From an uncultured Spirochaetia bacterium (GTDB lineage: Bacteria > Spirochaetota > Spirochaetia > CAZBHR01), in NCBI GenBank assembly GCA_964492025.1, contig CAZBHR010000002.1, positions 106,568 to 170,567 of the forward strand: a DNA stretch of 64,000 bases, read 5' to 3'. Every line of letters begins with the position of its first letter. Positions within the stretch are counted from its first letter, which is position 1. Both the position numbers and the translations under genes were made by a program. Positions 46,945-63,897 of this stretch are shown here, piece after piece. Below the pieces are notes generated by a model. That model saw only the letters and a list, made by a program, of their open reading frames with translations, was not told the origin of the DNA and made no database searches.

Positions 46945-47853
46945 CTATTTCCAAAGTGGAGTGGGGTAGGTCCCATTGTCCGCAAGCTTCTTCATCTCAT
47001 CCTTTGCTAGTTGTAGGTCCTCTTTATAGGTTACTCCAAACCAGTGAGCAGGAGTTGGTAATACCTTCATTTTTGCAACTCCACGCTTAAGAAGTTTATC
47101 TACCTCTTTTGGAAGGAGGTACTCAGATTTTGGATTATCCTTCTCCTCTTCAAGAAAAGGGATAAATCCCTCTTTTAGGTGAGCGAGTACCGCAGGGGAG
47201 AATCCAAAGAAGTTCATAGAGGTAGGCTCTTTTCCTGTAAGCTCAGTTCCTACACCCTCTGGGTTTGTGGTAATAATCTTATCACCCTCATATCCAATCT
47301 TTAAGTTTTCCTCAATATTTTGAAGCCACCCCTCATTGTTTACGGTACAAATTCCACGAGAAACAGTTCCGTGTGTTGAAAGAGTGTTATCTAACTGGTA
47401 ACCCATCATGGCAAATTCAGTACTTGTGACATCAATGCCCTTCAAATACTCTGCCATGGTATGGAAAGGGTGTGCCCCATAAAAATCATCCGCATTGATA
47501 ACAGCAAATGGTGCATCAATTGCATCGGCAGCACATATAATAGTGTGTGCAGTTCCCAAAGGTTTTACCCTATCCTCAGGAAGCTTAATATGATCAGGAA
47601 CGTGACTATCAATCTCCTGATAACAGTACTCCACAGGGATATCACTTGGGATCTGCTCAGCAATAACCTCTTTAAAGTCTTTCTCAATATCCTTTCGAAT
47701 AATAAAAACAACCTTAGAAAATCCCGCTTGAATAGCATCATAAATAGAGTAGTTAATAATAATCTCTCCATTCTGTCCAACTGGAACAATCTGCTTTATT
47801 CCTCCAAATCGGCTTCCCATTCCAGCTGCCATAACTACAAGTATCGGTTTCAT
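46945..47853 (-). CDS. Sugar-phosphate nucleotidyltransferase family protein
   Basis: N-terminus MKPILVVMAAGMGSRFGG is the nucleotide-binding G-rich loop of NTP-transferase domains. Start set to ATG 47853 with AGGAG 7 nt upstream; the ORF track begins at 47880. Confidence 0.6.
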   Translation of the reverse strand: MKPILVVMAAGMGSRFGGIKQIVPVGQNGEIIINYSIYDAIQAGFSKVVFIIRKDIEKDFKEVIAEQIPSDIPVEYCYQEIDSHVPDHIKLPEDRVKPLGTAHTIICAADAIDAPFAVINADDFYGAHPFHTMAEYLKGIDVTSTEFAMMGYQLDNTLSTHGTVSRGICTVNNEGWLQNIEENLKIGYEGDKIITTNPEGVGTELTGKEPTSMNFFGFSPAVLAHLKEGFIPFLEEEKDNPKSEYLLPKEVDKLLKRGVAKMKVLPTPAHWFGVTYKEDLQLAKDEMKKLADNGTYPTPLWK

Positions 47854-48039
47854 AATCATACTCCTAAAATGTGTTAGCATAGTGTAGCAGAACAGCCGTG
47901 TTCCTGCAATGGTAAAGTGAGAGGTTCTTGTTCTTATCTGGAGTAGGAATCTGATACACTGTATGTCAGGTAGAATTTAGTGAGGTCATACAAATAATAT
48001 GTTCATATTTGCTGAAAAAAAGTTCTTTTTTATTCGTGG

Positions 48040-50053: not shown

Positions 50054-51811
50054 ATGAGAAAGTGGAGTTTACTTTTGCTAGCACTACTAGCATCGGTTCT
50101 GGTTATCGCCTGTGGTGGTAAATCATCAGGGGGCCAGAGTGGTATTAGAGCAGAAGGGAGTCAAGAAAAAGATGTTATTGAGTTAACAATATCTATGATT
50201 CCTAAGTATGAATTGGGAGTTATGAAGCAGTTAAATAATCCTGATAATGTTATAGTTCCATACATTGAGGAGCGTTTTGGTATCCGAGTGAAAGAGGTTA
50301 TGAAGACACCTCCAGACATGACTACTACCCAGGCAGTTTCTATGTGGCGAGCTGCAGGTATGGCCCCTGACCTTATGCATAGTGGAGCAGAGGACTTTGG
50401 TAACTTGGTTGGATCTGGAATATTTGCTCCGTTGGATGAGTACTTAGAAGATATGCCAAACTATGAGAAATATCTACCTCGAAAGTATTGGTCTCGAGAG
50501 GTTGGAGAAGATGGAAGTGTGTACGCTTTTTATAACCTTCCAGGACAACCTTGGCCTCAACAGGAGCCACCTTCTGACGATGTAGTTACTCCAAGTATGC
50601 ATGGGCGAGCATTATGGGTAAGAGAGGATGTTCTTGAAGCTATTGGGTACTCCTTTACTCCTGTTATGGAGCTTAAAGCAGAGACCGTTGATAAAGGTAT
50701 TCGTCCTACCGCTGAGCAGTTAGCTATCTCTCCAGCTATAGACACTCCAGAGGACTTTCTTGAGTTCCTTCGAAAAATCAAAGCTGCAGATCTTAAGGCT
50801 ATGGATGGTTCAGATATGATCCCTTTCTCCATGGTGAGTTGGGAGACTTGGCACCTTGGTGTTATGTTTGACTGGGGATATTGGAGAATAAATGAAGAGG
50901 GTGAGGTTGATGGATACCTCGGTCTTCCTGGTGCAAAGGATTATATGGAGTGGCTCTGGACCGCTTATAGTGAAGGGCTTATTGATCCAGACTACCTTGT
51001 ACATAAGGGTGTTCAGTTACAAGAAAAAATTGCAACTGGTAAGATTGCTGCGGGCGAGTATGTACCAGACTCTATCGGAACCTTTGCTCAGTTAGAGAAT
51101 AATGTTCCTGGAGCTATTCGACACTTTATTCCATTTCCAAAGCAATCACCTGACTACGGATTTTATGATACTTACAATCCCCATCCATACTACAGAACTC
51201 TGATAAATAAAGATCTTTCAGAAGAGGCTAAAAGACGAGTAGCAGCCTTTGCAGATTGGCTTTATAGCGATGAGGGAATATCTATTATGGCGTGGGGACC
51301 AGAAGAGGCAGGACTCTATGAGGTTGTGGACGGAAACCGTCGATTCATTGATCCTCAGGTAGAAGAGGCCATTCTTAGTGGAGATATTGAAGGCGAGGGT
51401 GTGTATAAATGGGGACTATTTGATTCCGTACTTCAGTCTCCCGCTGACCCTCTTGCTCTTATGCTAGGACCAGAAGTACTCAATAGATCTGTATTTCATG
51501 ATTACGATAAGACAGGAAACTACATGTCCTTAATTAGTGGTATTGTTGGAAGTGAACCCAGTAATCTACCATTAGGTACTAAACTGCAGGTAGCAAACTC
51601 TGATCAATCTAAACTTGTACAGGGTGTTGCAGACTGGTACTGGGGTATTTTTCCTCAAACCTATCTACCTCAGTTACTCAAATCTAAGGATAAAGCTCAA
51701 TTTGAAGAAAGGTATGCGAACATGATGGATGCTTTCTATCGAGAAACTTCGTATGATAAAGCAAAAGAAAATATGGTAGAATATTTTAAAAAATATCCTC
51801 CAATGTATTAA
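50054..51811 (+). CDS. Large extracellular solute-binding lipoprotein (LplA-like)
   Basis: 585 aa, signal peptide with lipobox VIACGG; unusually long for a binding protein, as in LplA-type oligosaccharide binders. Confidence 0.65.
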   Translation: MRKWSLLLLALLASVLVIACGGKSSGGQSGIRAEGSQEKDVIELTISMIPKYELGVMKQLNNPDNVIVPYIEERFGIRVKEVMKTPPDMTTTQAVSMWRAAGMAPDLMHSGAEDFGNLVGSGIFAPLDEYLEDMPNYEKYLPRKYWSREVGEDGSVYAFYNLPGQPWPQQEPPSDDVVTPSMHGRALWVREDVLEAIGYSFTPVMELKAETVDKGIRPTAEQLAISPAIDTPEDFLEFLRKIKAADLKAMDGSDMIPFSMVSWETWHLGVMFDWGYWRINEEGEVDGYLGLPGAKDYMEWLWTAYSEGLIDPDYLVHKGVQLQEKIATGKIAAGEYVPDSIGTFAQLENNVPGAIRHFIPFPKQSPDYGFYDTYNPHPYYRTLINKDLSEEAKRRVAAFADWLYSDEGISIMAWGPEEAGLYEVVDGNRRFIDPQVEEAILSGDIEGEGVYKWGLFDSVLQSPADPLALMLGPEVLNRSVFHDYDKTGNYMSLISGIVGSEPSNLPLGTKLQVANSDQSKLVQGVADWYWGIFPQTYLPQLLKSKDKAQFEERYANMMDAFYRETSYDKAKENMVEYFKKYPPMY

Positions 51812-51831
51812 TAGGGAAATTATGTTTGTTT

Positions 51832-51854
51832 CGAGGGTGGCTCTGCCACCCTCG
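51832..51854 (+). terminator. Intercistronic stem-loop after the binding-protein gene
   Basis: Perfect 9-bp stem CGAGGGTGG / CCACCCTCG with a 5-nt loop, followed by TTATTGTATT. Lies 20 nt after the stop and upstream of the 978-aa ORF. Confidence 0.45.
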
Positions 51855-51922
51855 TTATTGTATTAGGGTAGAAAAAAGTTTTAACCATATGCTCGGGTGA
51901 GCAGTATGGAAAATAGAGAGGT

Positions 51923-54859
51923 ATGTTATATATGAAAGAGTTATATAGAGTAGGTGAGTGGGATGAGGAAACATTAGGAAATCATCGGCTTCTTATTCAA
52001 GCTGATGACACGCAACCCGCTGTTCATTGTATGGTTTCGTGGAGGCGATCTGATTTTAATCCAGAAAAGAAGGGTGTCTTTATTCGACCCCAGGGAAAGT
52101 CTAATTTTATTAAGAGGGTACATGTTAAGCATATTTCTCAAGAAGAGTTGGATCTTATTTTTGAGCCGGTACAAGGAGTAACCACCTATGAGGTGTATTA
52201 TATGCGATTCGAGGGTACCACCAGAGCCCCCTATTCTGTGATTAATTACCTTCCTGTACAAATATGTGAAGACGCCTCTTGGGTGAGCCAGTATAACAAA
52301 GTTGCCGAATCACTTCCACAAGCAGAGCTTATAGCTTTTGAATCATGTAGTGATTTTCACTCCTATTTTCCTATGGAAATCCCTGCAGGAACAGGAAGTG
52401 TAAAGGAGTTAACCGCTGCTCATGGTGATAAGAATTTTCTGATATTTCCAGAAGTTCGAGAGAACTCCATAAAAATGAGAAAAGACCTTCCTCATCATTG
52501 GGTTGAGCAAGGCCCTTTTGCCTCTCTTTCTTCTGAGGTTTTTCAAGGGGAGTATTACGTATTTCAACTTGGAGTTTTTGCTCATAGAGAGAATATTACG
52601 ATTAATAGTGTCTCTTTCTCCTTTCCTAAAAGCTCTGGAGCTTCTTCCTGGGATGGAACCTGTTTTAACCTTGAGGGTGTAAGTTATCTGGGAGAATCCT
52701 TTACAAAGGATATTATTCTTGTTAAAGGAGAGGTTCAGGCCTTATGGGCAGGGGTGCAAATTCCTGATGATATATCTCCATCAGTATATACTATCGATGT
52801 AACCGTAGAAACTGTTGAGTGTGGATCTGAAACGGTAACCCTTAAGCTAGACTGCCAAGGTAAGAGTATTGTTGATAAGGGTGATGATGACCCATACAGA
52901 TTATCTCGGCTTCGGTGGTTGAACTCTACCATAGGATCTGAAGATGCGGTTATTAGCCCCTATATTCCGGTTACCAGATCGGGAGATACCTTTGCCATAC
53001 TTGGTAGAGATGTAACTCTTGGAAAGAGTGGTCTTCCTCATGCAATCCACAGCTATTACACTCCAGAGGTTACTAGTGTGGGAGATGAAGCATTTCCTAT
53101 ACTGGGAGCACCTATGGAATTCTCCGTATTGGATCAGAGTGCTAGTGAAGTTCTATGGAGTAGGGAGTCTCTCGTTTTTCAAGATACTCCTGAAGCGACC
53201 CAATCTTTTTCTCAGGTAAGTAGTTCTCCATCTTTAGAGCAAAGGCTATCTGCAACAATTGAACCAGATGGGTGCCTAGAGTACTCCATGGTTCTTTCTG
53301 CAAAAGAGAGAACTGAACTCAAGGATGTTAGCCTCTCTCTCCCTTTTCATAAGAATGTACTCAAGTATATGCTTGGTTTAGGTTTTAAGGGTGGAGCTAT
53401 TCAAGATGACTTTGAGTGGAGTTGGAATACAAAAAAGAAAAATCAAGACTCCCTGTGGATTGGTTGTGAAAGGGGAGGTGTTCAGGTTTTCTTGAGCGAT
53501 GACCATTACAACCGTCCCCTTAACACAAACTTTTACCACCTACAGCCGTTGGTAACTCCCGTTTCTTGGGACAACCAGGGTAAAGGACGAATCACGTTTA
53601 AGAAACATACAGACTATGGTATGGTAACCTGTTCTAGTGGGGATCGAGTTATGGAGAAAGGGGAATCTTTGGTATTTAACTTTCGACTGCTCATAACACC
53701 ATTTCGACCAATTGATACGTATAAACAGTGGAACTCTCGGTTTATCCATGAATTTAAGCCACTGGATGAGGTTAAAGAGAGTAGGGCTAACGTAGTAAAC
53801 ATTCACCATGCGAAACCGGTAAACCCCTTTATTAATTACCCATTTTTGCGAACAAAGGAGCTAAAAGAGTATATTGATGAAGCCCATGATATGGATATGC
53901 GGGTACGACTGTATTACACCATTAGAGAGCTTACGAATCACGCTCCAGAACTGTTTGCCCTACGAAGTTTGGGGCATGAAGTGTTCTCTTCTGGTCCTGG
54001 GGGAGGGCAATCTTGGTTACAGGAACACCTGTATGAAGACTATATTGCGGCGTGGCATGTTTTTGAGTACGGCTGTTGTGCAATTGCCAATACAGGGTCT
54101 TCTCGCTGGACCAACTTTTACCTAGAAGGATTAGATTGGCTTACGCGAAAACTTAAGATTGATGGAGTGTATATTGACGACCTAGCATTTGGACGTGGAA
54201 CCATGAAGAGAATGCGACGAGTATTAGACACCCACCGTACAGATGCACTTATAGACCTTCACTCAGCAAATCAGTTTAACGATAAAGATGGATATGCAAA
54301 TAGTATTAACATGTATATGGAAAACTTACCCTATATTGATAGACTCTGGTTTGGTGAATACTTTGAGTATGATAAAGAACCGGAGTATTGGATGACAGAG
54401 GTTGCGGGGATACCCTTTGGCCTTATGGGCGAAATGTTACAAGATGGGGGGCATATATGGCGAGGAATGCTGTACGGTATGACCAGTCGTTATCCTCATG
54501 AAACAGGAGACCCCAGAAGACTCTGGGAAATCTGGAATGACTTTGGAATTTCCGATACAGAGATGTATGGGTACTGGTCTCCAAATATTCCTGTTGTAAC
54601 ACCCTGTGATGATATACTGACCACCGTATACCTGAAACCAGATGGAGCAGGAGCGATGATTGCAGTTGCTAGTTGGAACGATGAAGATGTATCTGTGACC
54701 TTTGACTATGACTGGGAAAAGCTTGGAATGAACCCTGATAAAGTAATAGTACGATCTCCTTATATTGAAAGAGATCAGGAGGAAGCGGAGTATCAGGTAG
54801 GGGAGAGTATTCCTATTAAGAAAAACCAAGGAGCAATACTTATTATCCAGGAGAAGTAA
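51923..54859 (+). CDS. Large cytoplasmic protein of unknown function, possibly glycoside-hydrolase-like
   Basis: 978-aa uninterrupted ORF with no signal peptide, co-oriented with the LplABC-like transporter. Start may be ATG 51923 or 51932. Function not recognisable by eye. Confidence 0.4.
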   Translation: MLYMKELYRVGEWDEETLGNHRLLIQADDTQPAVHCMVSWRRSDFNPEKKGVFIRPQGKSNFIKRVHVKHISQEELDLIFEPVQGVTTYEVYYMRFEGTTRAPYSVINYLPVQICEDASWVSQYNKVAESLPQAELIAFESCSDFHSYFPMEIPAGTGSVKELTAAHGDKNFLIFPEVRENSIKMRKDLPHHWVEQGPFASLSSEVFQGEYYVFQLGVFAHRENITINSVSFSFPKSSGASSWDGTCFNLEGVSYLGESFTKDIILVKGEVQALWAGVQIPDDISPSVYTIDVTVETVECGSETVTLKLDCQGKSIVDKGDDDPYRLSRLRWLNSTIGSEDAVISPYIPVTRSGDTFAILGRDVTLGKSGLPHAIHSYYTPEVTSVGDEAFPILGAPMEFSVLDQSASEVLWSRESLVFQDTPEATQSFSQVSSSPSLEQRLSATIEPDGCLEYSMVLSAKERTELKDVSLSLPFHKNVLKYMLGLGFKGGAIQDDFEWSWNTKKKNQDSLWIGCERGGVQVFLSDDHYNRPLNTNFYHLQPLVTPVSWDNQGKGRITFKKHTDYGMVTCSSGDRVMEKGESLVFNFRLLITPFRPIDTYKQWNSRFIHEFKPLDEVKESRANVVNIHHAKPVNPFINYPFLRTKELKEYIDEAHDMDMRVRLYYTIRELTNHAPELFALRSLGHEVFSSGPGGGQSWLQEHLYEDYIAAWHVFEYGCCAIANTGSSRWTNFYLEGLDWLTRKLKIDGVYIDDLAFGRGTMKRMRRVLDTHRTDALIDLHSANQFNDKDGYANSINMYMENLPYIDRLWFGEYFEYDKEPEYWMTEVAGIPFGLMGEMLQDGGHIWRGMLYGMTSRYPHETGDPRRLWEIWNDFGISDTEMYGYWSPNIPVVTPCDDILTTVYLKPDGAGAMIAVASWNDEDVSVTFDYDWEKLGMNPDKVIVRSPYIERDQEEAEYQVGESIPIKKNQGAILIIQEK

Positions 54860-54866
54860 TGAGTAG

Positions 54867-54898
54867 GGGGAAGGGCATCAAGCTCTTCCCCTTTTTTT
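54867..54898 (+). terminator. Intrinsic terminator
   Basis: Stem GGGGAAGGGC / GCTCTTCCCC (one mismatch) with loop ATCAA, followed by TTTTTTT (54892-54898). Confidence 0.65.
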
Positions 54899-55122
54899 AT
54901 ATTATAACTTGGGAAGAATACTTCTTTGAGGTGGCTTCTCTGGGGATGTTATCCACTCCAGAGTACTGGCTTATTCTTTAGTGGATATTTGGTAGTTCAT
55001 AATTTTAAAGCACTGTTCAGTATTTCAGATTCCTTTCTCAATATTTTCGAGCTAAAATATATTTTATAGTAGAACCAACCATCCTATTTTAGGTTTGTTG
55101 GTATAAATTTGGAGGTGAAGAT

Positions 55123-56157
55123 ATGAAAAAAATATTAGAACTAGGGTTTATACTTCTTATGAGCCTACTCATTTTAGTTTCTTGTGGAGATTCTGAGCAG
55201 GAAGCATCTGGGTCATATGAGAAAACATCAAATACACTGGTAATTTATAGTCCCCATAAGGCGGATATGATAAACCCAATTATCAAAGAATTTCAGGAAA
55301 CTACAGGCATAAAGGTTGAACTTGTTGCAGCAGGGACAGGAGAGCTTTTAAAACGAATCGAATCAGAGTCTAACAATCCCTTAGGTGATATCATGTGGGG
55401 TGGTGGAGCGGAGTCTCTTAACGCTTTTGGAGATTTTTTTACCGCTTACGAAAGCCCAGAGACTGCATATATTGACTCTAGCTTTATTGGGGCCAATCAT
55501 ATTTGGACAGGAACGAGTCCTCTCCCTATGGTAATAATGTATAACAAAAAACTTGTGAACCCAGAAGACGTTCCTCGTGGTTGGGAAGATTTACTTGATT
55601 CTAAATGGACTGGTAAAATTGCATATGCCGATCCTACACGATCAGGCTCATCCTTTACAATTTTAGCAACTATGCTAGAGGCTTTTAAAGATAGGGGGGA
55701 TGATGGTTGGTTTTTTATTAGAGATTTCTATAAAAATCTTGATGGAAAGCTTATTTCAGGATCTTCTGGTGTATACAAGGGTGTTTCTGATGGTGAGTAT
55801 TCTGTGGGATTAACCCTAGAGAAAGCTGCTATGGAGTATGTAAATGCGGGTGCTGATGTGGGTATTGTGTATCCTAAAGAAGGAACATCCTCTGCTCCCG
55901 ATGGGATTGCAATTATAAAGGGTGCTAAGAACATTAATAATGCAAAGGTGTTTTTTGACTTTGTTCTAAAATCAGAGACACAAAAATACGTATATGAAAA
56001 TTTTGCTTCTCGTCCAGTTCGCAATGATATAGAGCTATCTGAAACCATGTTACCAGTTTCAGATATTAAGCTTGTTGATTATGATCTTGAATGGGTTTCC
56101 GCAAACAAAGAGAGCATTGTTAAAAAGTGGAAAGATATTGTTATTGGAAAATATTAA
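55123..56157 (+). CDS. ABC transporter substrate-binding lipoprotein, iron(III)/cluster-D type, substrate unknown
   Basis: 344 aa, lipobox LVSCGD. The N-terminal pattern (LVIYSPH...TGIKVELVAAGTGELLKRI) resembles FbpA/AfuA-type binding proteins. Confidence 0.6.
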   Translation: MKKILELGFILLMSLLILVSCGDSEQEASGSYEKTSNTLVIYSPHKADMINPIIKEFQETTGIKVELVAAGTGELLKRIESESNNPLGDIMWGGGAESLNAFGDFFTAYESPETAYIDSSFIGANHIWTGTSPLPMVIMYNKKLVNPEDVPRGWEDLLDSKWTGKIAYADPTRSGSSFTILATMLEAFKDRGDDGWFFIRDFYKNLDGKLISGSSGVYKGVSDGEYSVGLTLEKAAMEYVNAGADVGIVYPKEGTSSAPDGIAIIKGAKNINNAKVFFDFVLKSETQKYVYENFASRPVRNDIELSETMLPVSDIKLVDYDLEWVSANKESIVKKWKDIVIGKY

Positions 56158-56220
56158 GATGTGTAGGGGAGACCTTTATGGTTCTTCCCTTACTTGAGCA
56201 TATGAGGAGAGTTTAATCAA

Positions 56221-57297
56221 ATGAGTCATATCAAGATAAGAAATGCTGTAAAAAAATATGGTGATTATAAAGCGGTTAATCATGTAAGTGTTGATATAGA
56301 GGAGGGTGAGCTATTTACGCTTCTCGGACCTTCTGGTTGTGGGAAAACAACCCTTTTAAGAATGATTGCTGGATTTAACTCTATCGATGAAGGTGAGATC
56401 CTCCTTGGAGAGTTGTGTTTGAATAATATTCCTGCCCATAAGCGTAATATTGGAATGGTCTTTCAAAACTATGCAATCTTTCCTCATATGTCAGTTTTTA
56501 AAAATGTAGCCTATGGACTTAAGGCTCGAAAGATTGAACGTGACGAAATTGAAAAACGAGTCATTGAAGCTTTGAAAATGGTTCAAATGGAGAGCTTTAA
56601 GGATAGAAGCCCATCTCAACTTAGTGGGGGTCAGCAGCAGAGGATTGCACTTGCTCGAGCAATTGTGATCCATCCTGATGTTCTTTTAATGGATGAACCT
56701 CTGAGTAATCTTGACGCAAAGTTACGAGTACAAATGAGGACTATTATACGAAAGCTTCAAAAGGATTTAAAGATTACGACTGTTTATGTTACCCATGACC
56801 AAGAAGAGGCCCTTGCAATATCCGATCGAATTGCAGTTATGAAGTTGGGAGAAATTCAGCAAATTGGAACTCCTAAGGAAATTTATGCTCATCCTAAGAA
56901 TACATTTATTGGAGATTTTATTGGAACATCAAATTTTCTTATAGGAGAAGTTACGAATACCAAGGAGGGGGCTACTTCTATTAACGTAGAAGGCTGTCCT
57001 ATCACAGTTCCTTTATCATTAAGTAATGCTCAAAAGGTTACTATTGCGGCTCGTCCAGAGGAGATCTGTCTCTCGGATGATGATTCTAAAGGATTACCAG
57101 CGTCTATTGTGATGAGTACCTTTCTTGGAGATTTTATTAATTATGAAGTTCAGCTTTCAAGTGGTAAAACTATTGAAGTGAACGAGTACACAAAGGATGT
57201 TTCTAGAGTCCGTACTGTGGGAGATCGTGTATTTGTGCATTTTGTGTATGAAAAGATTCATATTTATGATGAAGCAGGACAGGAGGTTCTTTTATGA
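56221..57297 (+). CDS. ABC transporter ATP-binding protein (FbpC/PotA-type, with C-terminal regulatory domain)
   Basis: 358 aa with Walker A (GPSGCGKTT), signature (LSGGQQQRI) and Walker B (LLMDEP). Confidence 0.8.
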   Translation: MSHIKIRNAVKKYGDYKAVNHVSVDIEEGELFTLLGPSGCGKTTLLRMIAGFNSIDEGEILLGELCLNNIPAHKRNIGMVFQNYAIFPHMSVFKNVAYGLKARKIERDEIEKRVIEALKMVQMESFKDRSPSQLSGGQQQRIALARAIVIHPDVLLMDEPLSNLDAKLRVQMRTIIRKLQKDLKITTVYVTHDQEEALAISDRIAVMKLGEIQQIGTPKEIYAHPKNTFIGDFIGTSNFLIGEVTNTKEGATSINVEGCPITVPLSLSNAQKVTIAARPEEICLSDDDSKGLPASIVMSTFLGDFINYEVQLSSGKTIEVNEYTKDVSRVRTVGDRVFVHFVYEKIHIYDEAGQEVLL

Positions 57298-58937
57298 AGT
57301 CCTCTCTTAATTTCTGGAGCGTAACTCGTTTTCTTATTTTTCTCTTACTTATCTTATTTTTGGTATATCCTTTTTCTGCTATGGTAAAGGAAAGCTTTAT
57401 CTCTGTTGAAACCGGTAGGTTTTCCTTTAGAAACTTTATCGATTTCTTCACTTATCCCTATTACTACCAAACTTTGAAGAATAGTTTTTCTGTTGTCTTT
57501 GCAGCAACATTTTTTTCAACTCTTATTGGGCTTCCCATGGCTTTCTTTGTTTCTCGATATAATATTCCCGGTAAGTCTACTCTTAATATGATGATTATTC
57601 TTTCATTACTGTCTCCTCCCTTTATAGGAGCGTACTCGTGGATACTTCTCTTGGGGCGAAATGGAATTGTTACAAGACTTTTTTCAAGTTTAGGGATAAC
57701 TTTACCCACAATATACGGGTGGAGTGGGATTGTTCTTGTTTTTACATTAAAATTCTTTCCATATATTTACTTGTTTGTTTCTGGGGCCCTAAAAAATGTA
57801 GATGCTTCTTTAGAAGAAGCTGCGGAAAACTTGGGCGTTTCTGGTATGAAAAAGTTATTTACCGTGACCTTTCCTCTTATTTTGCCTACAATTTTAGCGG
57901 GGGCACTTATGGTGTTTATGTCATCTTTGGCGGATTTCGGTACACCAATGCTCATAGGTGAGGGGTATAAGGTTCTTCCAGTCCTCATTTATGAGGAGTA
58001 CATGAGTGAGATTGGAGGAAATGCTTCAATTGCTAGTATGCTAAGTGTTGTAACTGTTTTTTGTGCTTTAATAGTATTGGCTATTCAAAAAATGGTTATT
58101 GCTAAAAAGTCATATGTTATGAGTGCTCTTAGGCCTCCTCAGATTGTTGAACTGACTCAAGGAAAGCGATTCTTATGTACTCTGTTCTGCTTTGGAATTG
58201 CTGGGATTGCAATGATTCCTCAGATTGTAGTTATTGTAACATCATTTATTAAAACAAGTGGACCTATCTTTGTAAAGGGATTTAGTCTTGACAGTTATCG
58301 AATGATTATTAATAGACTTTCAACAAATATTATTAACACATATCTCTATTCAACCATTGCCATTGTTATTATGGTTGTCTTGGGACTTCTTGTGTCCTAT
58401 TTGATCGTACGTCGAAAATCAAAGGTTAATAATATGTTAGATCTTCTTATAATGTTTCCCTATGTTATTCCTGGTGCTGTTCTTGGAATAACCTTACTTG
58501 TTGCGTTCAACAAAAAGCCACTACTCCTAAGTGGAACTGCAGCAATTATGATTATTGCCTATGTGATACGAAAGCTCCCTTATACTGTTCGATCAAGTAG
58601 TGCAATTTTGTATCAGATAGATTCAAGTATTGAGGAGGCTTCCATAAATCTAGGTGTTTCTCCGATGAAAACCTTTATAAAGGTTACTGCGGTGCTTATG
58701 GCTCCAGGAGTACTCTCTGGAGCTTTATTGAGCTGGATTACCACTATCAATGAGTTAAGCTCTAGTATTATTCTATACACAGGGCGAACAGGAACTATCT
58801 CTGTTGCGATTTACACGGAGGTGGTGCGAGCAAGCTTTGGTACAGCGGCCGCTTTAGCAACAATCCTTACGGTAACAACAGTTATTTCTATGGTTATATT
58901 TAATAAGTGTTCTGGTGGGAAGGGGATAGCCTTGTAG
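57294..58937 (+). CDS. ABC transporter permease, fused two-domain (FbpB-like)
   Basis: 547 aa with two EAA-loop regions (EEAAENLGVSGMKKLFTVTFPL and EEASINLGVSPMKTFIKVT). 4-nt overlap with the ATPase gene. Confidence 0.7.
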   Translation: MKSSLNFWSVTRFLIFLLLILFLVYPFSAMVKESFISVETGRFSFRNFIDFFTYPYYYQTLKNSFSVVFAATFFSTLIGLPMAFFVSRYNIPGKSTLNMMIILSLLSPPFIGAYSWILLLGRNGIVTRLFSSLGITLPTIYGWSGIVLVFTLKFFPYIYLFVSGALKNVDASLEEAAENLGVSGMKKLFTVTFPLILPTILAGALMVFMSSLADFGTPMLIGEGYKVLPVLIYEEYMSEIGGNASIASMLSVVTVFCALIVLAIQKMVIAKKSYVMSALRPPQIVELTQGKRFLCTLFCFGIAGIAMIPQIVVIVTSFIKTSGPIFVKGFSLDSYRMIINRLSTNIINTYLYSTIAIVIMVVLGLLVSYLIVRRKSKVNNMLDLLIMFPYVIPGAVLGITLLVAFNKKPLLLSGTAAIMIIAYVIRKLPYTVRSSSAILYQIDSSIEEASINLGVSPMKTFIKVTAVLMAPGVLSGALLSWITTINELSSSIILYTGRTGTISVAIYTEVVRASFGTAAALATILTVTTVISMVIFNKCSGGKGIAL

Positions 58938-59007
58938 TTTTTATCTTAAGTGGTTTATGATAATCTTATTCCTCCTAGTAGACTTTGTAGAGGAGAGGGA
59001 GTTTTGA

Positions 59008-60750
59008 GTGTTTCAGAGGTCTGCATTTTTTAATAAGTTGCTTCTCTTTTTTATTTTGATAGGGGTGATCCCCTTAGGGGTTCTTACTTTTCTCGGTTAT
59101 GCTCTTTCCACTCAGATTCTTGAGAAATCTTTGTATCAGGAGACAAGTAGTAATCTACGTAAGCTCACTAGCGATATTGATGGTCTCTTTTTTGAGTATT
59201 CAAATCTTATTCAATTGTTATCAGAAGATCCTACACTTAAACAAGTTTTATCAGATGAGATCTCTCTTCAAGAGGCACACAATAGCATATACGAAAAAAT
59301 ATATTTTCTAACATTAAGTAAAACATATGTTTTTCCTCTCTATATTTTAGATGAAGAGGGTTCTGATCTTTTTGGTACGGCTCCCATGGCAAGTAAGCAT
59401 GTTGAGGATTTCTCAGCCAGCTGGGGAATCTTTAAGCAATTAAAAGGAGGAAACGGAGATATATTTATTATCTCTGAGAGCTTTGTAGATACCCAAGGGA
59501 ATAGTATTATTTTTACCATGGGTAAGAGAATTACAGATGGCTCTGGTGAAACACTTGGATATATTTTGGTAAATATAACAAGGGAAGCTGTCATCTCAAT
59601 TATAAACTCTTTTAGTTTAAGTGTAATTGATAATATTATTATTTCGGATCAGTTTTATTATATAGTGCTTAATATTAAAAACTCTAAAGCTGAAGGTTCT
59701 TTTTACCGAGGAGATTTTATCCATAAAGTTGAGACCTCTGATCATGATGAATTTTATTATAAGTATGGAAAGAATTTACTAGCTTACCATAGAAGCCGTA
59801 ATGCGCCTTTTCAAGTTTTTGCTACAATTCCTCTCGAGTCTATTGATAATAACTTAGGGTATATTAAGAAGCTCATTATACTAAGTCTCATTATTAGTGG
59901 GCTTCTCGCAATTTCTGTTTCTTTTTTTATGGCGAGAAATATAGTAAAGCCGATTAAAGTTTTAGTGAGAGGGATGAAAAGAGTAGAGGAGGGTGACTAT
60001 TCACCTACTATGAATCTCCAGCGTAATGATGAAATTGGTCTATTGGAAGATAGCTATAATAATATGGTAATAAAACTCCAGGAGTCTATCGATACCTTAG
60101 TGGCTAAACAGAGGCAGCTTAGGGAGGCCGAGATTAAAATTCTTCAAGCGCAGATAAACCCTCATTTTCTATATAATACGTTAGATGCGGTCAAATGGAT
60201 GGCAAAACTGAAAAAATTTGATGAGATCACCACAATTGTAACTCAGCTTGGAACACTTCTAAGAAATAGTATTGATAATAATAGGGAATTTCTTACGGTT
60301 AGAGAAAATCTAGAGATTGTAAACAGTTATATAAGAATCCAAAGCATCCGGTCAAATGAGCAGTTTTCTGTAGTGTATAAGATAGATGAAGGGGTGTATG
60401 AATACCAAACCCCTAAGCTTATGCTACAGCCACTGGTAGAGAATGCAATTATTCACGGTCTGATGCACGGAGATATTGGTGGAGTGTTGGTTATTGAAGC
60501 ATGGGTAGATTCAAATAATCTTATATTCGTTGTTCAAGATAATGGAGTAGGAATGAGTAGTGATCAGCTACATCAAGTACTGAATCAATCTGGGAGTGAT
60601 CACATAGGTTTATGTAATGTTGATCATAGGATTAAACTCTACTATGGTGTGGAGTATGGGCTTTCTGTTGAAAGTAAAATAGGAGAGGGGACAAGGGTAA
60701 CTATAAAAATTCCAAAAATTCGTCCATCAATATTGGGAGGTGATTCATGA
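59008..60750 (+). CDS. Sensor histidine kinase (YesM-type)
   Basis: 580 aa: two TM helices flanking an extracytoplasmic domain, HAMP, then His-kinase (QINPHFLYNTLDAV) and ATPase domains. Confidence 0.75.
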   Translation: MFQRSAFFNKLLLFFILIGVIPLGVLTFLGYALSTQILEKSLYQETSSNLRKLTSDIDGLFFEYSNLIQLLSEDPTLKQVLSDEISLQEAHNSIYEKIYFLTLSKTYVFPLYILDEEGSDLFGTAPMASKHVEDFSASWGIFKQLKGGNGDIFIISESFVDTQGNSIIFTMGKRITDGSGETLGYILVNITREAVISIINSFSLSVIDNIIISDQFYYIVLNIKNSKAEGSFYRGDFIHKVETSDHDEFYYKYGKNLLAYHRSRNAPFQVFATIPLESIDNNLGYIKKLIILSLIISGLLAISVSFFMARNIVKPIKVLVRGMKRVEEGDYSPTMNLQRNDEIGLLEDSYNNMVIKLQESIDTLVAKQRQLREAEIKILQAQINPHFLYNTLDAVKWMAKLKKFDEITTIVTQLGTLLRNSIDNNREFLTVRENLEIVNSYIRIQSIRSNEQFSVVYKIDEGVYEYQTPKLMLQPLVENAIIHGLMHGDIGGVLVIEAWVDSNNLIFVVQDNGVGMSSDQLHQVLNQSGSDHIGLCNVDHRIKLYYGVEYGLSVESKIGEGTRVTIKIPKIRPSILGGDS

Positions 60751-61577
60751 TCAAAGTACTTATTGTAGAAGATGAATTATATACTCGAAAAGGGCTTATT
60801 GAAACTACCCCATGGGAAGAGTGTTCCTGTACTGTGGTTGGTGAGGCTCGGGATGGAGCTGAGGGGCTTAGAATGATAGAAGAGTTATCACCAGATTTAG
60901 TAATAACTGATGTGAGAATGCCCCGAATGTCTGGAATAGAGATGATCAAATTCTATAATAGTACACTAAAAGGGAGTATGGGTAATAGAGATATTGCCTT
61001 TATTATTCTGTCTGGGCATGAAGATTTTCATTATGCACAAAAAGCAATATCCCTTGGAGTCAAAGAGTATCTTCTGAAACCCATTGACGATAATATTCTT
61101 ATTCAGTCTTTACAGAAAATGAGTACCACACTCTGCCAAACGAAGACTTCTATAGGATATCAGGGAACGTCTTTGTCTCTCCCCGTAAACCTCAAGGCTG
61201 ATTTGTATCGGGAAATTTCTACTCATGAGTATCATCCTGAGTCTATTACTGGTAAGAGTTTATATCTAAAAAAAGCAATAGCCTATATAGAGAGAAATTA
61301 TATTGAAGGTATCTCCATAAAAGATGTTGCACAGTTACTTGCTATTACAGAGAGTTACTTGAGTCGGATTTTTAAGAGTGAAACTAACCACACTTTTTTG
61401 GAATATCTTTCCTGGTATCGTATTAAAAAAGCTTGTGAGCTTATGAAAGAGGAGGATATTCGCATTTATCAGATTGCAGAGCTTGTAGGATTTGAGGACT
61501 CTTGTTATTTTAGTTCGGTATTCAAAAAATACCTAGGAAAAACCCCAACAGAAGTTCGAAATATTATACTTAGCTAA
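60747..61577 (+). CDS. Response regulator with receiver and AraC-type HTH domains (YesN-like)
   Basis: 276 aa, begins MIKVLIVEDELYTRKG; C-terminal AraC helix-turn-helix. 4-nt overlap with the kinase gene. Confidence 0.75.
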   Translation: MIKVLIVEDELYTRKGLIETTPWEECSCTVVGEARDGAEGLRMIEELSPDLVITDVRMPRMSGIEMIKFYNSTLKGSMGNRDIAFIILSGHEDFHYAQKAISLGVKEYLLKPIDDNILIQSLQKMSTTLCQTKTSIGYQGTSLSLPVNLKADLYREISTHEYHPESITGKSLYLKKAIAYIERNYIEGISIKDVAQLLAITESYLSRIFKSETNHTFLEYLSWYRIKKACELMKEEDIRIYQIAELVGFEDSCYFSSVFKKYLGKTPTEVRNIILS

Positions 61578-61731
61578 TATTGATTTTCCCTTAGAAACTC
61601 ACATTAGCTTTATAGGAATAATGCCTCCTTGCCACCTCTTCGTGTAAAAAAGTACAATAATGTGTTGATACACAGGATTTTTTCATTGACCCAGTTTTAT
61701 ATTGTATTATACTAAAGGCAAGGAGTGTCCC

Positions 61732-63897
61732 GTGTTATATATCATAATTATTGCTATAGTACTTGCATTAATGTTCTCCCTCTACAACTACAAGAGGGTA
61801 GAAAAGTTAGATGGTGGCTCAGAGACTATGCAGGAGATCTCTTCTGCTATACGAATTGGAGCCAGTACCTTTATTAAAAATGAGTATAAGTTAGTTGCGA
61901 TAATCAGTGCCATTATCACAGTTATTCTCATTCTCGTTACCAGTGTATCCACTGCAATAGCATTTTTGCTTGGTGCTACAATGAGTGGAACCGCAGGGTA
62001 TGTTGGCATGAAAATAGCTACCATTACTAACTCTCGTGTAGCCCAGGAGGCAAATACGAGTAGGAGTCTTGGTTCTACCCTTAAGGTTGCCTTTCGTGGA
62101 GGAAGTGTTATGGGGCTTTCGGTTGCCGCTTTTGCACTCCTTGGAATGCTTATTGTCTATGTGGTGTTTGGTAAGATGTTAGGTCAGCTTGATATTGATA
62201 ATATTAATTTTCATACAAACTTTTTAGGAATAGCGGATATACCCTTTACCATGACCGTTTCTGGTTACGCTTTAGGTTGTTCTGTTATTGCAATGTTTAA
62301 CAGAGTTGGCGGTGGTATTTATACAAAGGCCGCAGATATGGGAGCAGATTTAGTTGGTAAAACTGAAGCTGGTATTCCCGAAGATGACCCCCGAAACCCT
62401 GCAACTATTGCGGATAATGTGGGTGATAACGTTGGTGATGTTGCTGGTCTTGGATCAGACCTCCTAGAGAGTTTTGTAGGATCTATGGTATCTGCAATCA
62501 TCTTAGCCAGTTATATATTTTATCATAATACTCGTATGGGTGTAGCTATATCCTATGAGTTATTGCAGAGTTTAATCATTTTTCCTATTCTGTTTGCGAG
62601 TATTGGACTTATTGGGTCTATTGTGGGAATTGGATACCTACTCTTTAAAAAGGTGTCAGATAATCCCCATAAGGAGTTGAATAGATCTATTCAGGCCGCT
62701 GCTTTTTTAACATTAGTAAGCACTGGATTCCTTAGTTATTACACCTTTGCGGGGCAAGATGTGACACCCCTAGGATTTAAGCTTGGGCCATTATCTCCAT
62801 GGATAGCTTCTATTACTGGTATTATAAGTGGTATTGTGATTGGGCACCTTGCGGAACGATACACAAGCTACGACTTTAAGCCTACCAAGAAAATATCTGC
62901 CGCTTCCCAAGAGGGTACTGCCTTAACTATTACCCAAGGGTTGGCTACTGGAATGACCTCGGTATTCTTTCCTGTAGTGGTATTAGCACTGGCTACAATT
63001 GTATCATTCTCCGTATCTGGGTTGTATGGGGTAAGTATGGCAGCCCTTGGAATGTTATCATTTGTTGCGGCCACCGTTTCTGTTGATACCTATGGTCCAA
63101 TTGCGGATAACGCTGGTGGTATTGCAGAGATGTCTAAGTTAGATGGAGAGGTGCGGGAAATTACGGATAAATTAGACTCCGTTGGAAACACCACTGCAGC
63201 GGTTGGTAAGGGGTTTGCCATTGGAAGTGCGGCCTTTGCTGCGTTGTCACTCTTCTCTTCATACCTCTATGCTAAGGCAGGAGCATCTATTGATGAGTCC
63301 TTTGAGCTTGTACTAAATATGATCGATAGCTTTACCCTTGCTGGTGGACTTGTTGGTGCGGCTCTTCCATTTCTCTTTTCAGGGATTCTTATTGAGGCTG
63401 TTGCAAAGGCTGCAAGAAGCATGGTTGATGAAGTACGACGACAGTTTAAAGAGATGCCAGGAATATTAACAGGGGAGGAGAAACCAGACTATACTCGCTG
63501 TATTGAAATATCAACAAAGGGGTCTCTTCGGGAGATGGTACTTCCTGCACTGGTAGCTGTGTTAGTTCCTATTGTTTCAGGACTTCTCTTTGGACCACAG
63601 TTTGTAGGTGGGCTTTTGATTGGAACAACCCTATCTGCTATTATGTTAGCCCTTTTTACCGCCAACTCCGGTGGTGCTTGGGATAATGCGAAAAAGTATA
63701 TAGAACAAGGACACTTTGGGGGGAAAGGTTCAGATTCCCATATTGCGGGTGTTGTAGGAGATACCGTAGGAGACCCTCTTAAAGATACGGTTGGTCCATC
63801 ATTAGATATTCTTATTAAGATTATGGCAGTAATAGCTGTTATTACCGTTTCGATTTTTAGTGAATTTAACCTATTATCTCTATTGGGATTAAACTAG
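61732..63897 (+). CDS. hppA: Membrane-bound pyrophosphatase, K+-dependent type (H+ or Na+ pumping)
   Basis: Conserved motifs (GGGIYTKAADMGADLVGK, DNVGDNVGD, DTVGDPLKD). The GNTTAAVGKG motif carries Ala rather than Lys, the K+-dependent signature. Start set to GTG 61732, 7 nt after AAGGAG; the ORF-track start is TTG 61702. Confidence 0.85.
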   Translation: MLYIIIIAIVLALMFSLYNYKRVEKLDGGSETMQEISSAIRIGASTFIKNEYKLVAIISAIITVILILVTSVSTAIAFLLGATMSGTAGYVGMKIATITNSRVAQEANTSRSLGSTLKVAFRGGSVMGLSVAAFALLGMLIVYVVFGKMLGQLDIDNINFHTNFLGIADIPFTMTVSGYALGCSVIAMFNRVGGGIYTKAADMGADLVGKTEAGIPEDDPRNPATIADNVGDNVGDVAGLGSDLLESFVGSMVSAIILASYIFYHNTRMGVAISYELLQSLIIFPILFASIGLIGSIVGIGYLLFKKVSDNPHKELNRSIQAAAFLTLVSTGFLSYYTFAGQDVTPLGFKLGPLSPWIASITGIISGIVIGHLAERYTSYDFKPTKKISAASQEGTALTITQGLATGMTSVFFPVVVLALATIVSFSVSGLYGVSMAALGMLSFVAATVSVDTYGPIADNAGGIAEMSKLDGEVREITDKLDSVGNTTAAVGKGFAIGSAAFAALSLFSSYLYAKAGASIDESFELVLNMIDSFTLAGGLVGAALPFLFSGILIEAVAKAARSMVDEVRRQFKEMPGILTGEEKPDYTRCIEISTKGSLREMVLPALVAVLVPIVSGLLFGPQFVGGLLIGTTLSAIMLALFTANSGGAWDNAKKYIEQGHFGGKGSDSHIAGVVGDTVGDPLKDTVGPSLDILIKIMAVIAVITVSIFSEFNLLSLLGLN

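What the first reader, a model, noticed from the sequence alone, without database searches (positions are those of the whole stretch)
55123..61577. Iron(III)-type ABC transporter directly followed by a histidine kinase and AraC-type regulator
A cluster-D-type binding lipoprotein, a PotA/FbpC-type ATPase and a fused two-domain permease are immediately followed, 70 nt later, by a second YesM/YesN-type two-component pair. Binding proteins of this class bind diverse ligands (ferric iron, polyamines, thiamine, sugar phosphates), so the substrate cannot be inferred from sequence. The physical coupling to a dedicated sensor suggests the system senses and imports a specific nutrient. This window therefore holds two transport-linked AraC-type sensor modules (see 35187-39710).
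Basis: partly seen in the sequence, partly recalled or inferred. Interest (0 to 1): 0.4.

Follow-up and report, generated by a model that had tools for sequence, protein, structure and literature searches.

The report
Sugar-phosphate-type importer with own sensor
This five-gene unit, which databases label an "iron(III)" transporter, lacks the iron-binding residues; it looks like an uptake system for a phosphorylated sugar switched on by its own membrane sensor, linking two known systems (AfuABC and HptRSA) in a common but unstudied Firmicutes family.

Summary
Five co-directional genes at 55123-61577 encode a binding lipoprotein, an ATPase, a fused double permease, a dCache/HAMP histidine kinase and a receiver-AraC regulator. 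The interpretation can be sharpened. All four iron ligands of ferric FbpA are absent. The anion/phosphate cradle (T72, S174-G175-S176, S214) is invariant in 119 homologues. The closest solved proteins are organophosphate binders: AfuA and VcA0625 (hexose-6-phosphates), P5PA (pyridoxal phosphate) and HptA, the glucose-6-phosphate co-sensor of the AraC-type HptSR system. The family is about 30% identical to both AfuA and HptA, which are only 21% identical to each other. The transporter-kinase-regulator link holds in 56 of 60 adequately covered genome loci across Bacillota. The kinase's sensor domain is co-inherited with the transporter. A phosphohexomutase (about 45/80 loci) and a HAD hydrolase (35/80) are recurrent partners, though neither is in this window. 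A direct repeat (GTTCAnnAT-N11-GTTCAnnAT, 54995-55023), unique in the window and conserved in relatives, lies just upstream of the promoter-like site. Best reading: an autoregulated sugar-phosphate (or related organophosphate) ABC importer. AfuA's sugar-specificity triad is absent, so the exact ligand is unknown. Whether the binding protein also signals to the kinase is untested.

The parts
54865..54893 (+). Intrinsic-terminator-like hairpin plus T-run ending the upstream GH123_N-like gene; the 5' boundary of the unit
   Evidence: 12-bp stem, 7 GC pairs, T-run; sequence read
54995..55023 (+). Direct repeat GTTCATAAT-N11-GTTCAGTAT (20 bp start to start); candidate binding site of the AraC-type regulator
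   Evidence: Phylogenetic footprint with L086, L087 and L006. Single match in the 64-kb window, 0.03-0.05 expected. Same position in L001-L006, L086, L087. The relaxed form is found upstream of the binding-protein gene in 8 loci against 0.02 expected (pattern defined post hoc). Function is inferred, not shown.
55035..55063 (+). Promoter-like site TTCTCA-17-TATATT, immediately downstream of the repeat; GGAGG ribosome-binding site at 55111-55115
   Evidence: 9/12 consensus match, which alone is not above chance; sequence
55123..56157 (+). Substrate-binding lipoprotein (344 aa) of the AfuA/HptA/P5PA organophosphate-binding clade of cluster-D binding proteins
   Evidence: PDB sequence hits; model pLDDT 88.8; Foldseek top hits AfuA, VcA0625, P5PA, STM0429; pocket columns
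56221..57297 (+). ABC ATPase with C-terminal TOBE_2 domain (PotA/UgpC/PhnT2-like)
57294..58937 (+). Fused two-domain ABC permease (2 x BPD_transp_1; best model PhnU2, below cutoff)
59008..60750 (+). Sensor histidine kinase: TM1, extracellular double-Cache domain, TM2, HAMP, His_kinase (H386 in NPHF), HATPase_c
   Evidence: model pLDDT 88.2; dCache fold hits; sensor domain specific to this transporter family
60747..61577 (+). Response regulator, receiver (D55) + AraC-type HTH, 276 aa
   Evidence: 44-46% identical over full length to the regulators linked to the same transporter in other genera
46945..47880 (-). Tentative accessory gene: sugar-1-phosphate nucleotidyltransferase-like protein (311 aa), 7 kb upstream
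   Evidence: Orthologues (34-45% identity) lie within or next to the operon in 12 loci, including all five other loci that share the window's K234/A235/A258 pocket signature. The link to the operon in this window is inferred only.

Best explanation
This is a self-contained, substrate-induced uptake unit for an extracellular organophosphate, most likely a phosphorylated hexose. The lipoprotein captures the ligand. Its phosphate sits in a cradle of three helix N-termini (T72, S174-G175-S176, S214), and the rest of the ligand in a family-specific polar/aromatic site. The lipoprotein docks on the fused permease, and the TOBE-type ATPase drives import. The membrane kinase detects the same external compound through its double-Cache domain, either via the ligand-loaded binding protein (as HptA does for HptS) or directly. 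It then phosphorylates the receiver-AraC regulator. The regulator binds the direct repeat at 54995-55023 next to the -35 region and activates transcription of the operon, including its own genes. In most relatives the imported sugar phosphate is then handled by an operon-encoded phosphohexomutase (6-P/1-P interconversion) and a HAD hydrolase, and sometimes a nucleotidyltransferase. This window carries the trimmed five-gene form. Shown: gene content, homology, pocket residues, conserved synteny, conserved repeat. Inferred: ligand class, autoregulation through the repeat, and any contact between binding protein and kinase. Approximate sub-confidences: functional transporter + sensor unit 0.9; phosphorylated sugar as ligand 0.65; regulator acts at the repeat 0.6; binding protein acts as co-sensor 0.4.
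For: Closest solved proteins by sequence and fold are AfuA (G6P/F6P/S7P), VcA0625 (G6P), HptA (G6P sensor) and P5PA (PLP), all ahead of ferric binders (identities confirmed in PMC4546632, PMC8427247, PMC8050422). Phosphate-contact residues of AfuA (S37, T150) and P5PA (T37, S147-G148-T149, S183) align with T72, S174-G175-S176 and S214, invariant in 119/119 homologues. FbpA's iron ligands are absent. HptA and AfuA are each about 30% identical to the family but 21% to each other. HptSR is an AraC-family two-component system (PMC11019936) with a dCache sensor that reads G6P through HptA (PMC8050422). The kinase and regulator are present in 56/60 adequately covered loci. The sensor domain matches the kinases of 64 other loci but not the window's own paralogue. 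A catalytically complete phosphohexomutase is adjacent in 45-47/80 loci and a HAD hydrolase in 35/80. L087 (69% identical binding protein) has all seven genes on one strand. L026 has binding protein-kinase-regulator with no ABC genes, an HptA-like layout. The direct repeat is conserved, unique and sited next to the promoter-like site.
Against: AfuA's sugar-specificity triad H205/D206/E229 is replaced by K234/A235/A258, so the ligand is not predicted to be bound as AfuA binds G6P. The best NCBIfam models are the putative 2-aminoethylphosphonate PhnS2/T2/U2, though far below cutoffs. The mutase and HAD genes are absent from this 64-kb window. The kinase sensor domain shows no sequence relationship to the HptS sensor domain even at E<=10, and HptS is not in the top 50 fold matches. 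Double-Cache domains commonly bind small ligands directly. The repeat pattern was defined post hoc and is found in only two clades; Bacilli loci carry a different repeat. The anion cradle is ancestral to the whole fold class, including ferric binders, so on its own it does not prove a phosphate ester. No coordinates were available for a real pocket analysis, and nothing here is experimental.
Confidence: 0.6

Rival explanations
1. Same importer and same regulatory pair, but the kinase senses the compound directly with its double-Cache domain. The binding protein serves transport only, so this is a plain two-component system and not a three-component one.
For: The sensor domain is a generic dCache most like ligand-binding chemoreceptor domains (PscC, Tlp3, PctA, KinD). 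It has no detectable similarity to the HptS sensor domain. Conserved W139-G140, Y131, Y185 and D189 lie in the membrane-distal module, where dCache ligands usually bind.
Against: The binding protein is HptA's closest relative among those compared. L026 keeps binding protein + kinase + regulator without a transporter. The window's other YesM-type kinase is also paired with a binding protein. Characterised Gram-positive sugar-phosphate sensors (HptRSA, SpsRK-ABC) need the binding protein (PMC8050422, PMC4049939).
Confidence: 0.35
2. The ligand is a non-sugar organophosphorus compound, for example 2-aminoethylphosphonate, a glycerophosphate derivative or a phosphorylated vitamin, imported as a phosphorus or nutrient source.
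For: The best NCBIfam models for all three transporter parts are PhnS2/PhnT2/PhnU2. STM0429/PhnS and P5PA are among the top fold matches. The AfuA sugar triad is absent.
Against: All Phn scores are far below the curated cutoffs (144 vs 393, 384 vs 458, 207 vs 593). No phosphonate-catabolism genes appear among recurrent neighbours; the conserved partners are a phosphohexomutase, a small HAD hydrolase whose nearest specific model is glucose-1-phosphatase, and a sugar-1-P nucleotidyltransferase-like protein. P5PA's ring contacts Y103/H203 are M136/K234 here.
Confidence: 0.2
3. It is a ferric-iron ABC importer, as the automatic annotations ('iron(III) transport system substrate-binding protein') say.
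For: Database names of homologues; ferric FbpA/HitA/FutA proteins share the fold.
Against: All four FbpA iron ligands are missing: H9->K46, E57->invariant G94, and Y195/Y196 correspond to a tyrosine-free segment. The window protein has no Tyr-Tyr pair anywhere. Ferric binders rank below all organophosphate binders. Control is by a sugar-type AraC two-component system, and the neighbours are sugar-phosphate enzymes.
Confidence: 0.03
4. It is a polyamine or thiamine importer (PotD/TbpA-like).
For: Weak NCBIfam and PDB hits to PotD and thiamine-binding proteins; the ATPase scores well on PotA models.
Against: Binding-protein hits are marginal (E 1e-4 to 1e-11, well below the AfuA/HptA hits). ATPase similarity is generic to the subfamily. 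No TPP riboswitch or any Rfam family is present in the window.
Confidence: 0.02

Closest known systems
AfuABC hexose/heptose-phosphate ABC importer (Actinobacillus pleuropneumoniae, EHEC, Citrobacter rodentium; PDB 4R72-4R75) and V. cholerae VcA0625 (8X1A)
   Same: Same three-part architecture (binding protein, fused double permease, TOBE-type ATPase). Best sequence and fold match of the binding protein (30% identity, TM 0.77-0.84). Same phosphate-holding Ser/Thr positions. Likewise mis-annotated as an iron transporter.
   Different: The sugar-specificity triad H205/D206/E229, which the authors used to define AfuA homologues, is K/A/A here. This is a Gram-positive lipoprotein. It is hard-wired to a kinase/regulator pair and, in relatives, to a phosphohexomutase and a HAD hydrolase. 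The ligand is unknown.
HptRSA three-component glucose-6-phosphate sensor of Staphylococcus aureus (PDB 6LKG/6LKH)
   Same: HptA is a homologue of the window's binding protein (29% identity; shares E233, Y250, D260, R300, D302, P135, N141, which AfuA lacks). Gene order is binding protein-kinase-regulator. The kinase has a dCache sensor and the regulator is AraC-family. Both regulate sugar-phosphate uptake.
   Different: HptA has no permease or ATPase and is a pure sensor; the regulated transporter is the MFS antiporter UhpT. Here the binding protein belongs to a complete ABC importer. The sensor domains show no detectable sequence similarity.
SpsRK-ABC sugar-phosphate sensor/uptake system of Bacillus cereus
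   Same: A five-gene Gram-positive cluster with a two-component system plus a lipoprotein binding protein needed for G6P/F6P-induced expression of the uptake genes.
   Different: SpsR is OmpR-type. Uptake is by an MFS antiporter (SpsC). It needs an extra protein of unknown function (SpsA). The two-component genes are a separate, non-induced transcription unit.
P5PAB pyridoxal-5'-phosphate importer (PDB 6WCE)
   Same: Same clade and the same phosphate cradle (T37, S147-G148-T149, S183).
   Different: The ring contacts Y103/H203 are not conserved. P5PA is restricted to Pasteurellaceae and has no linked sensor.
XylFII-LytS/YesN type three-component sugar sensors of Clostridia
   Same: A YesM/LytS-class kinase plus an AraC-type regulator using a binding protein as the ligand receptor to switch on an ABC importer. 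The window's second module (35187-39710) looks like this type.
   Different: Those use a dedicated sensor binding protein of the Peripla_BP_4 class, distinct from the transporter's own binding protein, and they sense neutral sugars.
FbpABC/HitABC ferric-iron importers
   Same: Same fold class and operon architecture; the synergistic-anion site is homologous to the phosphate cradle.
   Different: All metal ligands are absent here.

Membership tests
AfuABC sugar-phosphate importer | Binding protein with the AfuA fold, plus fused double permease and ATPase in one operon | tested here: met
AfuABC sugar-phosphate importer | Phosphate-coordinating Ser37/Thr150 equivalents | tested here: met
   T72 and S176, invariant in 119/119 homologues
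AfuABC sugar-phosphate importer | Sugar-specificity triad His205/Asp206/Glu229 (the motif used in PMC4546632 to call AfuA homologues) | tested here: not met
   K234/A235/A258 in the window; K/E, E/A/T/S and V/A/I in the family
AfuABC sugar-phosphate importer | Binds and transports G6P/F6P/S7P | not testable with these tools
   Needs ITC/DSF and uhpT-mutant complementation
HptRSA three-component system | HptA-homologous binding protein encoded with the kinase and regulator | tested here: met
   E 1e-28 (single sequence) and 2e-43 (profile) to 6LKI/6LKG chain A; 117 bits, 29% identity
HptRSA three-component system | AraC-family regulator and a kinase with an extracellular dCache sensor | tested here: met
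   the HptSR family assignment is from PMC11019936 and the dCache assignment from PMC8050422
HptRSA three-component system | Sensor domain homologous to the HptS sensor domain | tested here: not met
   No PDB hit to 6LKG/6LKH kinase chains with a single sequence (E<=1) or with a 24-sequence profile (E<=10); not in the Foldseek top 50
HptRSA three-component system | Binding protein is a pure sensor and the output is an MFS antiporter (uhpT) | tested here: not met
   The binding protein heads a full ABC importer. None of the 50 window ORFs scanned with Pfam (the 5 operon genes plus 45 neighbours; most but not all ORFs of 180 aa or more) matched an MFS family
HptRSA three-component system | Ligand-dependent physical contact between binding protein and kinase | not testable with these tools
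   No complex prediction or experiment was available
Ferric-binding protein (FbpA/HitA) importers | Iron ligands His9, Glu57, Tyr195, Tyr196 | tested here: not met
   K46, G94 (119/119), no Tyr at the aligned segment; reference sequence verified against 1D9V/1MRP
PhnS2T2U2 putative 2-aminoethylphosphonate importer | Scores above the NCBIfam equivalog cutoffs | tested here: not met
   144.1 vs 392.75; 383.9 vs 457.7; 207.1 vs 593.25
PhnS2T2U2 putative 2-aminoethylphosphonate importer | Genomic association with phosphonate catabolism (phnW/phnX or phnA/phnY) | tested here: not met
   Recurrent neighbour families in 80 loci are a phosphohexomutase, a small HAD, a nucleotidyltransferase, Nudix and PHP. 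The HAD gave no PhnX-type hit
YesM/YesN-class two-component systems | His_kinase (PF06580) + HATPase_c kinase with HAMP; receiver + AraC HTH regulator | tested here: met
   the catalytic core matches 6SWJ at E 7e-26

The most novel reading that the evidence does not exclude
One lipoprotein serves both as the receptor of an ABC importer and as the ligand-presenting co-sensor of its adjacent dCache kinase. On this reading the family is the ancestral, transporter-attached form from which the sensor-only HptA of S. aureus derived. Its ligand is a phosphorylated sugar other than G6P/F6P (for example a hexose-1-phosphate, mannose phosphate or hexosamine phosphate). In relatives that sugar is fed by the operon's mutase and nucleotidyltransferase straight into nucleotide-sugar pools, which would be a salvage route for pre-phosphorylated sugars.
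Probability: 0.25. Interest if true: 0.55.

Novelty: new variant of a known kind. Interest (0 to 1): 0.4.

Why it matters
About 1,900 database proteins match this binding protein at E <= 1e-10 (a set that also takes in more distant binding proteins). The family around it spans many Bacillota (Vallitalea, Alkaliphilus, Proteiniclasticum, Ruminiclostridium, Clostridium cadaveris, Erysipelothrix, Bacillus-like genera, Paenibacillus), and those members that carry a database name are labelled 'iron(III)' or generic ABC binding proteins. The evidence here re-assigns the family to organophosphate, probably sugar-phosphate, uptake. That would change metabolic reconstructions of gut, rumen, sediment and digester Firmicutes. 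The family also gives an evolutionary and mechanistic bridge between two separately studied systems: the AfuABC importer of Gram-negative pathogens and the HptRSA sensor that controls fosfomycin susceptibility in S. aureus. It offers a simple test case for whether one binding protein can feed both a transporter and a kinase. The candidate operator and the compact five-gene form make it easy to test experimentally and potentially usable as an inducible expression switch.

Tried and rejected
1. Riboswitch control. No Rfam family reaches threshold anywhere in the window, so a TPP or other riboswitch clue to the ligand is ruled out.

2. Functional link to the upstream GH123_N-like glycosidase. Rejected: a strong terminator separates them, and the glycosidase has no relative in any of the 80 genome loci.

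3. Specific HptS-like sensor domain. Searched by single sequence, by a 24-member profile and by fold; not found. Only the fold class is shared.

4. The sensor-domain fragment as a homology-search query returned nothing, not even itself. This was treated as a tool limitation, and the full-length kinase was used instead.

5. A k-mer enrichment search for a regulator site across all 81 upstream regions gave only AT-rich background. The site emerged only from aligning close relatives.

6. The second SBP-like gene in the Bacilli versions was tested as a possible HptA-type sensor. It is unrelated to HptA and to the family.

7. The primary HptA-HptS structure paper (PNAS 2020) and the HptRS discovery paper (PMC4363416) are not held. 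The HptA ligand-contact residues therefore could not be compared.

8. One literature query was too loose and uninformative.

9. Model coordinates are not exposed, so the pocket analysis is alignment-based only.

10. The mutase's specificity could not be resolved. Its sugar loop GGESSGG and its best PDB relatives (broad PGM/PMM-type phospho-sugar mutases) do not discriminate between hexoses.


Full report
**Observation**

Their domain content is as described:
- 55123-56157: a 344-aa binding lipoprotein matching SBP_bac_8/6/11/1.
- 56221-57297: an ABC ATPase with a TOBE_2 tail.
- 57294-58937: a 547-aa permease with two BPD_transp_1 units.
- 59008-60750: a kinase with dCache_1, HAMP, His_kinase (PF06580) and HATPase_c.
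- 60747-61577: a 276-aa receiver + AraC regulator.

The spacings are 63 nt, a 4-nt overlap, 70 nt and a 4-nt overlap. No terminator-like site lies inside the cluster. A strong terminator (54865-54893) closes the upstream GH123_N-like gene. The identical locus is present on several metagenome contigs. The nearest named relatives are Vallitalea species (about 68-70% identity for the binding protein).

**Not an iron binder**

I verified the H. influenzae FbpA sequence against PDB 1D9V/1MRP and aligned it with the window protein, 119 homologues and four organophosphate binders.
- FbpA's iron ligands H9, E57, Y195 and Y196 correspond to K46 (P/K/N in the family), G94 (Gly in 119/119) and a segment with no tyrosine.
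- The window protein has no Tyr-Tyr pair at all.
- FbpA's synergistic-anion site (S139-G140-A141, N175) is retained as S174-G175-S176 and S214.

**What the binding protein resembles**

By sequence, the best solved relatives are AfuA (4R72, E 6e-34), VcA0625 (8X1A), HptA (6LKI/6LKG, E 1e-28) and P5PA (6WCE). Ferric proteins rank lower. A family profile scores HptA, AfuA and VcA0625 equally (E about 1e-43). A confident model (pLDDT 88.8) finds AfuA with G6P or F6P, the 'periplasmic G6P binding protein VcA0625', P5PA and the PhnS-like STM0429 ahead of all ferric binders.

The literature confirms what these proteins are:
- AfuABC imports G6P, F6P and sedoheptulose-7-P. S37 and T150 hold the phosphate, and H205/D206/E229 set sugar specificity (PMC4546632).
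- P5PA holds the phosphate of PLP with T37, S147-G148-T149 and S183 (PMC8427247).
- HptA is the G6P-binding partner of the dCache kinase HptS (PMC8050422, PMC8774646).

Mapping these residues gives three results:
- The phosphate cradle T72, S174-G175-S176 and S214 is invariant in 119/119 homologues.
- The AfuA sugar triad is not conserved (K234/A235/A258).
- Several invariant family residues (P135, N141, E233, Y250, D260, R300, D302) are shared with HptA but not with AfuA.

HptA and AfuA are only 21% identical (57 bits), but each is about 30% identical to this family (116-149 bits). The family therefore sits between the two characterised systems.

**The sensor coupling is ancient and specific**

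A degenerate-pattern scan of one genome per species returned 394 confirmed relatives, of which the best 80 loci were kept. tblastn and ORF clustering gave these counts:

| Gene | Loci (of 80) |
|---|---|
| Binding protein | 78 |
| ATPase | 77 |
| Permease | 74 |
| Kinase | 67 |
| Regulator | 63 |

Of the 60 loci with at least 3 kb on both sides, 56 have the kinase. The pair lies downstream in Clostridia and Erysipelotrichia and upstream in Bacilli and Paenibacillus.

The window kinase's sensor domain (residues 1-290) detects the kinases of 64 other loci. It does not detect the sensor domain of the window's own second YesM-type kinase, and that paralogue's sensor domain detects none of the locus kinases. 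The regulator is 44-46% identical over its full length to the locus-linked regulators but matches the paralogue only in the receiver domain. This is a co-inherited module, not a chance juxtaposition.

**Neighbours point to sugar phosphates**

| Recurrent partner | Loci (of 80) | Notes |
|---|---|---|
| Phosphohexomutase (PGM_PMM_I-IV) | 45-47 | Intact TASHNP, DGDADR, GGESSGG and RFSGTEP motifs. Usually divergent from the binding-protein gene or placed between permease and kinase; in L007 between binding protein and ATPase |
| HAD hydrolase, about 200 aa | 35 | Usually directly after the regulator. Nearest specific model is glucose-1-phosphatase, weak |
| Sugar-1-P nucleotidyltransferase-like | 12 | |
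| Nudix | 9 | |
| PHP | 3 (clustering) to 4 (tblastn) | |

The mutase's closest solved relatives are broad PGM/PMM-type phospho-sugar mutases. L087 (69% identical binding protein) has binding protein-ATPase-permease-mutase-kinase-regulator-HAD on one strand. L086 (80%) has the same five-gene form as the window. The window itself lacks the mutase and the HAD gene. It does have the nucleotidyltransferase-like gene at 46945-47880.

The residues aligned with AfuA's sugar contacts define sub-signatures. The window's K/A/A signature is shared only with five Proteiniclasticum-type loci, and all six have that nucleotidyltransferase-like gene nearby.

**Candidate operator**

Aligning the upstream region with those of L086, L087 and L006 shows one conserved island in otherwise diverged sequence: GTTCAnnAT-N11-GTTCAnnAT.
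- In the window it lies at 54995-55023, 12 nt upstream of the promoter-like TTCTCA-17-TATATT.
- It is the only match in 64 kb, with 0.03-0.05 expected.
- It sits at the same place in all close relatives.
- A relaxed form (GTnCnnnAT, same spacing) lies 92-170 nt upstream of the binding-protein start in 8 loci. Only 3 matches occur elsewhere in 2.7 Mb, and 0.02 are expected.

The pattern is post hoc and covers only two clades. Bacilli loci have a different 21-bp repeat. A 20-bp direct repeat abutting the -35 region is the usual geometry for AraC-type activators (established knowledge). HptR likewise binds -67 to -96 of its target promoter (PMC6291074).

**How the signal is read remains open**

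The sensor-domain model (pLDDT 88.2) is a double-Cache domain, like HptS (PMC8050422). However, neither sequence, profile nor fold search recovers HptS specifically.

Three observations favour a binding-protein-dependent (three-component) mechanism:
- The HptA kinship.
- L026, which keeps binding protein-kinase-regulator without ABC genes.
- The precedent of HptRSA and SpsRK-ABC (PMC4049939).

Direct sensing by the Cache domain cannot be excluded.

**Comparison and novelty**

Both characterised Gram-positive sugar-phosphate sensors (Hpt, Sps) drive an MFS antiporter and use a sensor-only binding protein. AfuABC is not described with a dedicated sensor of its own: the AfuABC paper notes only a fucose-sensing two-component system elsewhere on the same island in EHEC (PMC4546632). 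Here a complete AfuABC-type importer is fused in one operon with an HptSR-type pair, and the binding pocket differs from AfuA's. Full-text searches found no description of this arrangement. It fails the AfuA motif test and two HptRSA defining features, so I file it as a new variant that works like both, not as a member of either.

**Verdict**

This is a moderately interesting, testable re-annotation of a widespread family. It is not a fundamentally new kind of system.

Noticed in passing
window 35187-39710 (-) and 27685-31428 (-): The second AraC-type module is regulator (569 aa, receiver + GGDEF_2-like + AraC), kinase (631 aa, dCache-HAMP-His_kinase) and a Peripla_BP_4 binding protein, with no permease or ATPase of its own. 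A complete CUT2 sugar ABC transporter (Peripla_BP_4, double ATPase, BPD_transp_2) lies about 4 kb away. It looks like a XylFII-LytS-type three-component sensor controlling that transporter.
   Followed up: partly
window 48129-54859 (+): An operon of two LplB/C-like permeases, a 585-aa binding protein and a 978-aa protein that matches the Pfam model GH123_N over its entire 969 positions (1207 bits) but matches no NCBIfam model. Its adjacency to the studied operon is lineage-specific: it has no relative in the 80 genome loci.
   Followed up: partly
L028, L040, L045, L048, L053, L055, L057, L059, L060, L062, L063, L065, L066, L070, L073, L076, L078, L079, L081, L084, L085: The Bacilli/Paenibacillus versions of the locus put the kinase/regulator upstream. 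They add, after the permease, a membrane-anchored SBP_bac_8-like protein (about 387 aa) in all 21 loci listed, and in 16 of these plus L075 a 280-aa protein with no Pfam/NCBIfam hit (motif DGAT[SN]). The extra SBP-like protein is unrelated to HptA. The pair recalls SpsB/SpsA of B. cereus, but this was not tested.
   Followed up: partly
L026:9001-12503: A family binding protein (59% identical) is followed directly by the kinase and regulator, with no ABC ATPase or permease within 9 kb. This is an HptA-like sensor-only arrangement inside this family.
   Followed up: partly
window SBP residues 234/235/258; L016, L018, L019, L020, L024: The K/A/A pocket sub-signature co-occurs 6/6 with a nearby nucleotidyltransferase-like gene, and the same two clades share the GTnCnnnAT repeat. 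This suggests a sub-specificity within the family. The sample is small, and several of the loci are congeners.
   Followed up: partly
window 46945-47880 (-): The nucleotidyltransferase-like protein matches an uncharacterised structural-genomics structure (3PNN, E 7e-75) far better than any named UTP-glucose-1-phosphate uridylyltransferase (E about 1e-6). Its substrate is unknown.
   Followed up: partly
window 41131-42909 (-): An adjacent pair of methyltransferases: one matches Methyltransf_9/DUF1698 (the CmoB-type family, 367 bits) and the other is a small SAM methyltransferase. A CmoA/CmoB-like tRNA-modification pair, better known from Gram-negatives (own knowledge), may be worth a look in a Clostridia-like genome.
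   Followed up: no
window 39742-41014 (-): Two ORFs of 201 and 219 aa between the second sensor module and the methyltransferases have no Pfam match.
   Followed up: no
window 61702-63897 (+): A membrane pyrophosphatase that passes the NCBIfam cutoff for a sodium-translocating pyrophosphatase (1048 bits vs 894) lies directly downstream, with its own promoter-like sites. This neighbour is not conserved in other loci.
   Followed up: no
window 14328-16130 (-), 31653-35090: Several poorly characterised glycan-related proteins sit among the sugar ABC transporters: DUF4838 (600 aa), a BNR/sortilin-repeat protein (735 aa) and DUF2264 (391 aa). The window as a whole is a carbohydrate-utilisation region.
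   Followed up: no
L067, L071: Two loci keep the regulator, and a PHP-domain gene after the permease, but no kinase was detected despite 6 kb of downstream sequence. This could be kinase loss or replacement.
   Followed up: no
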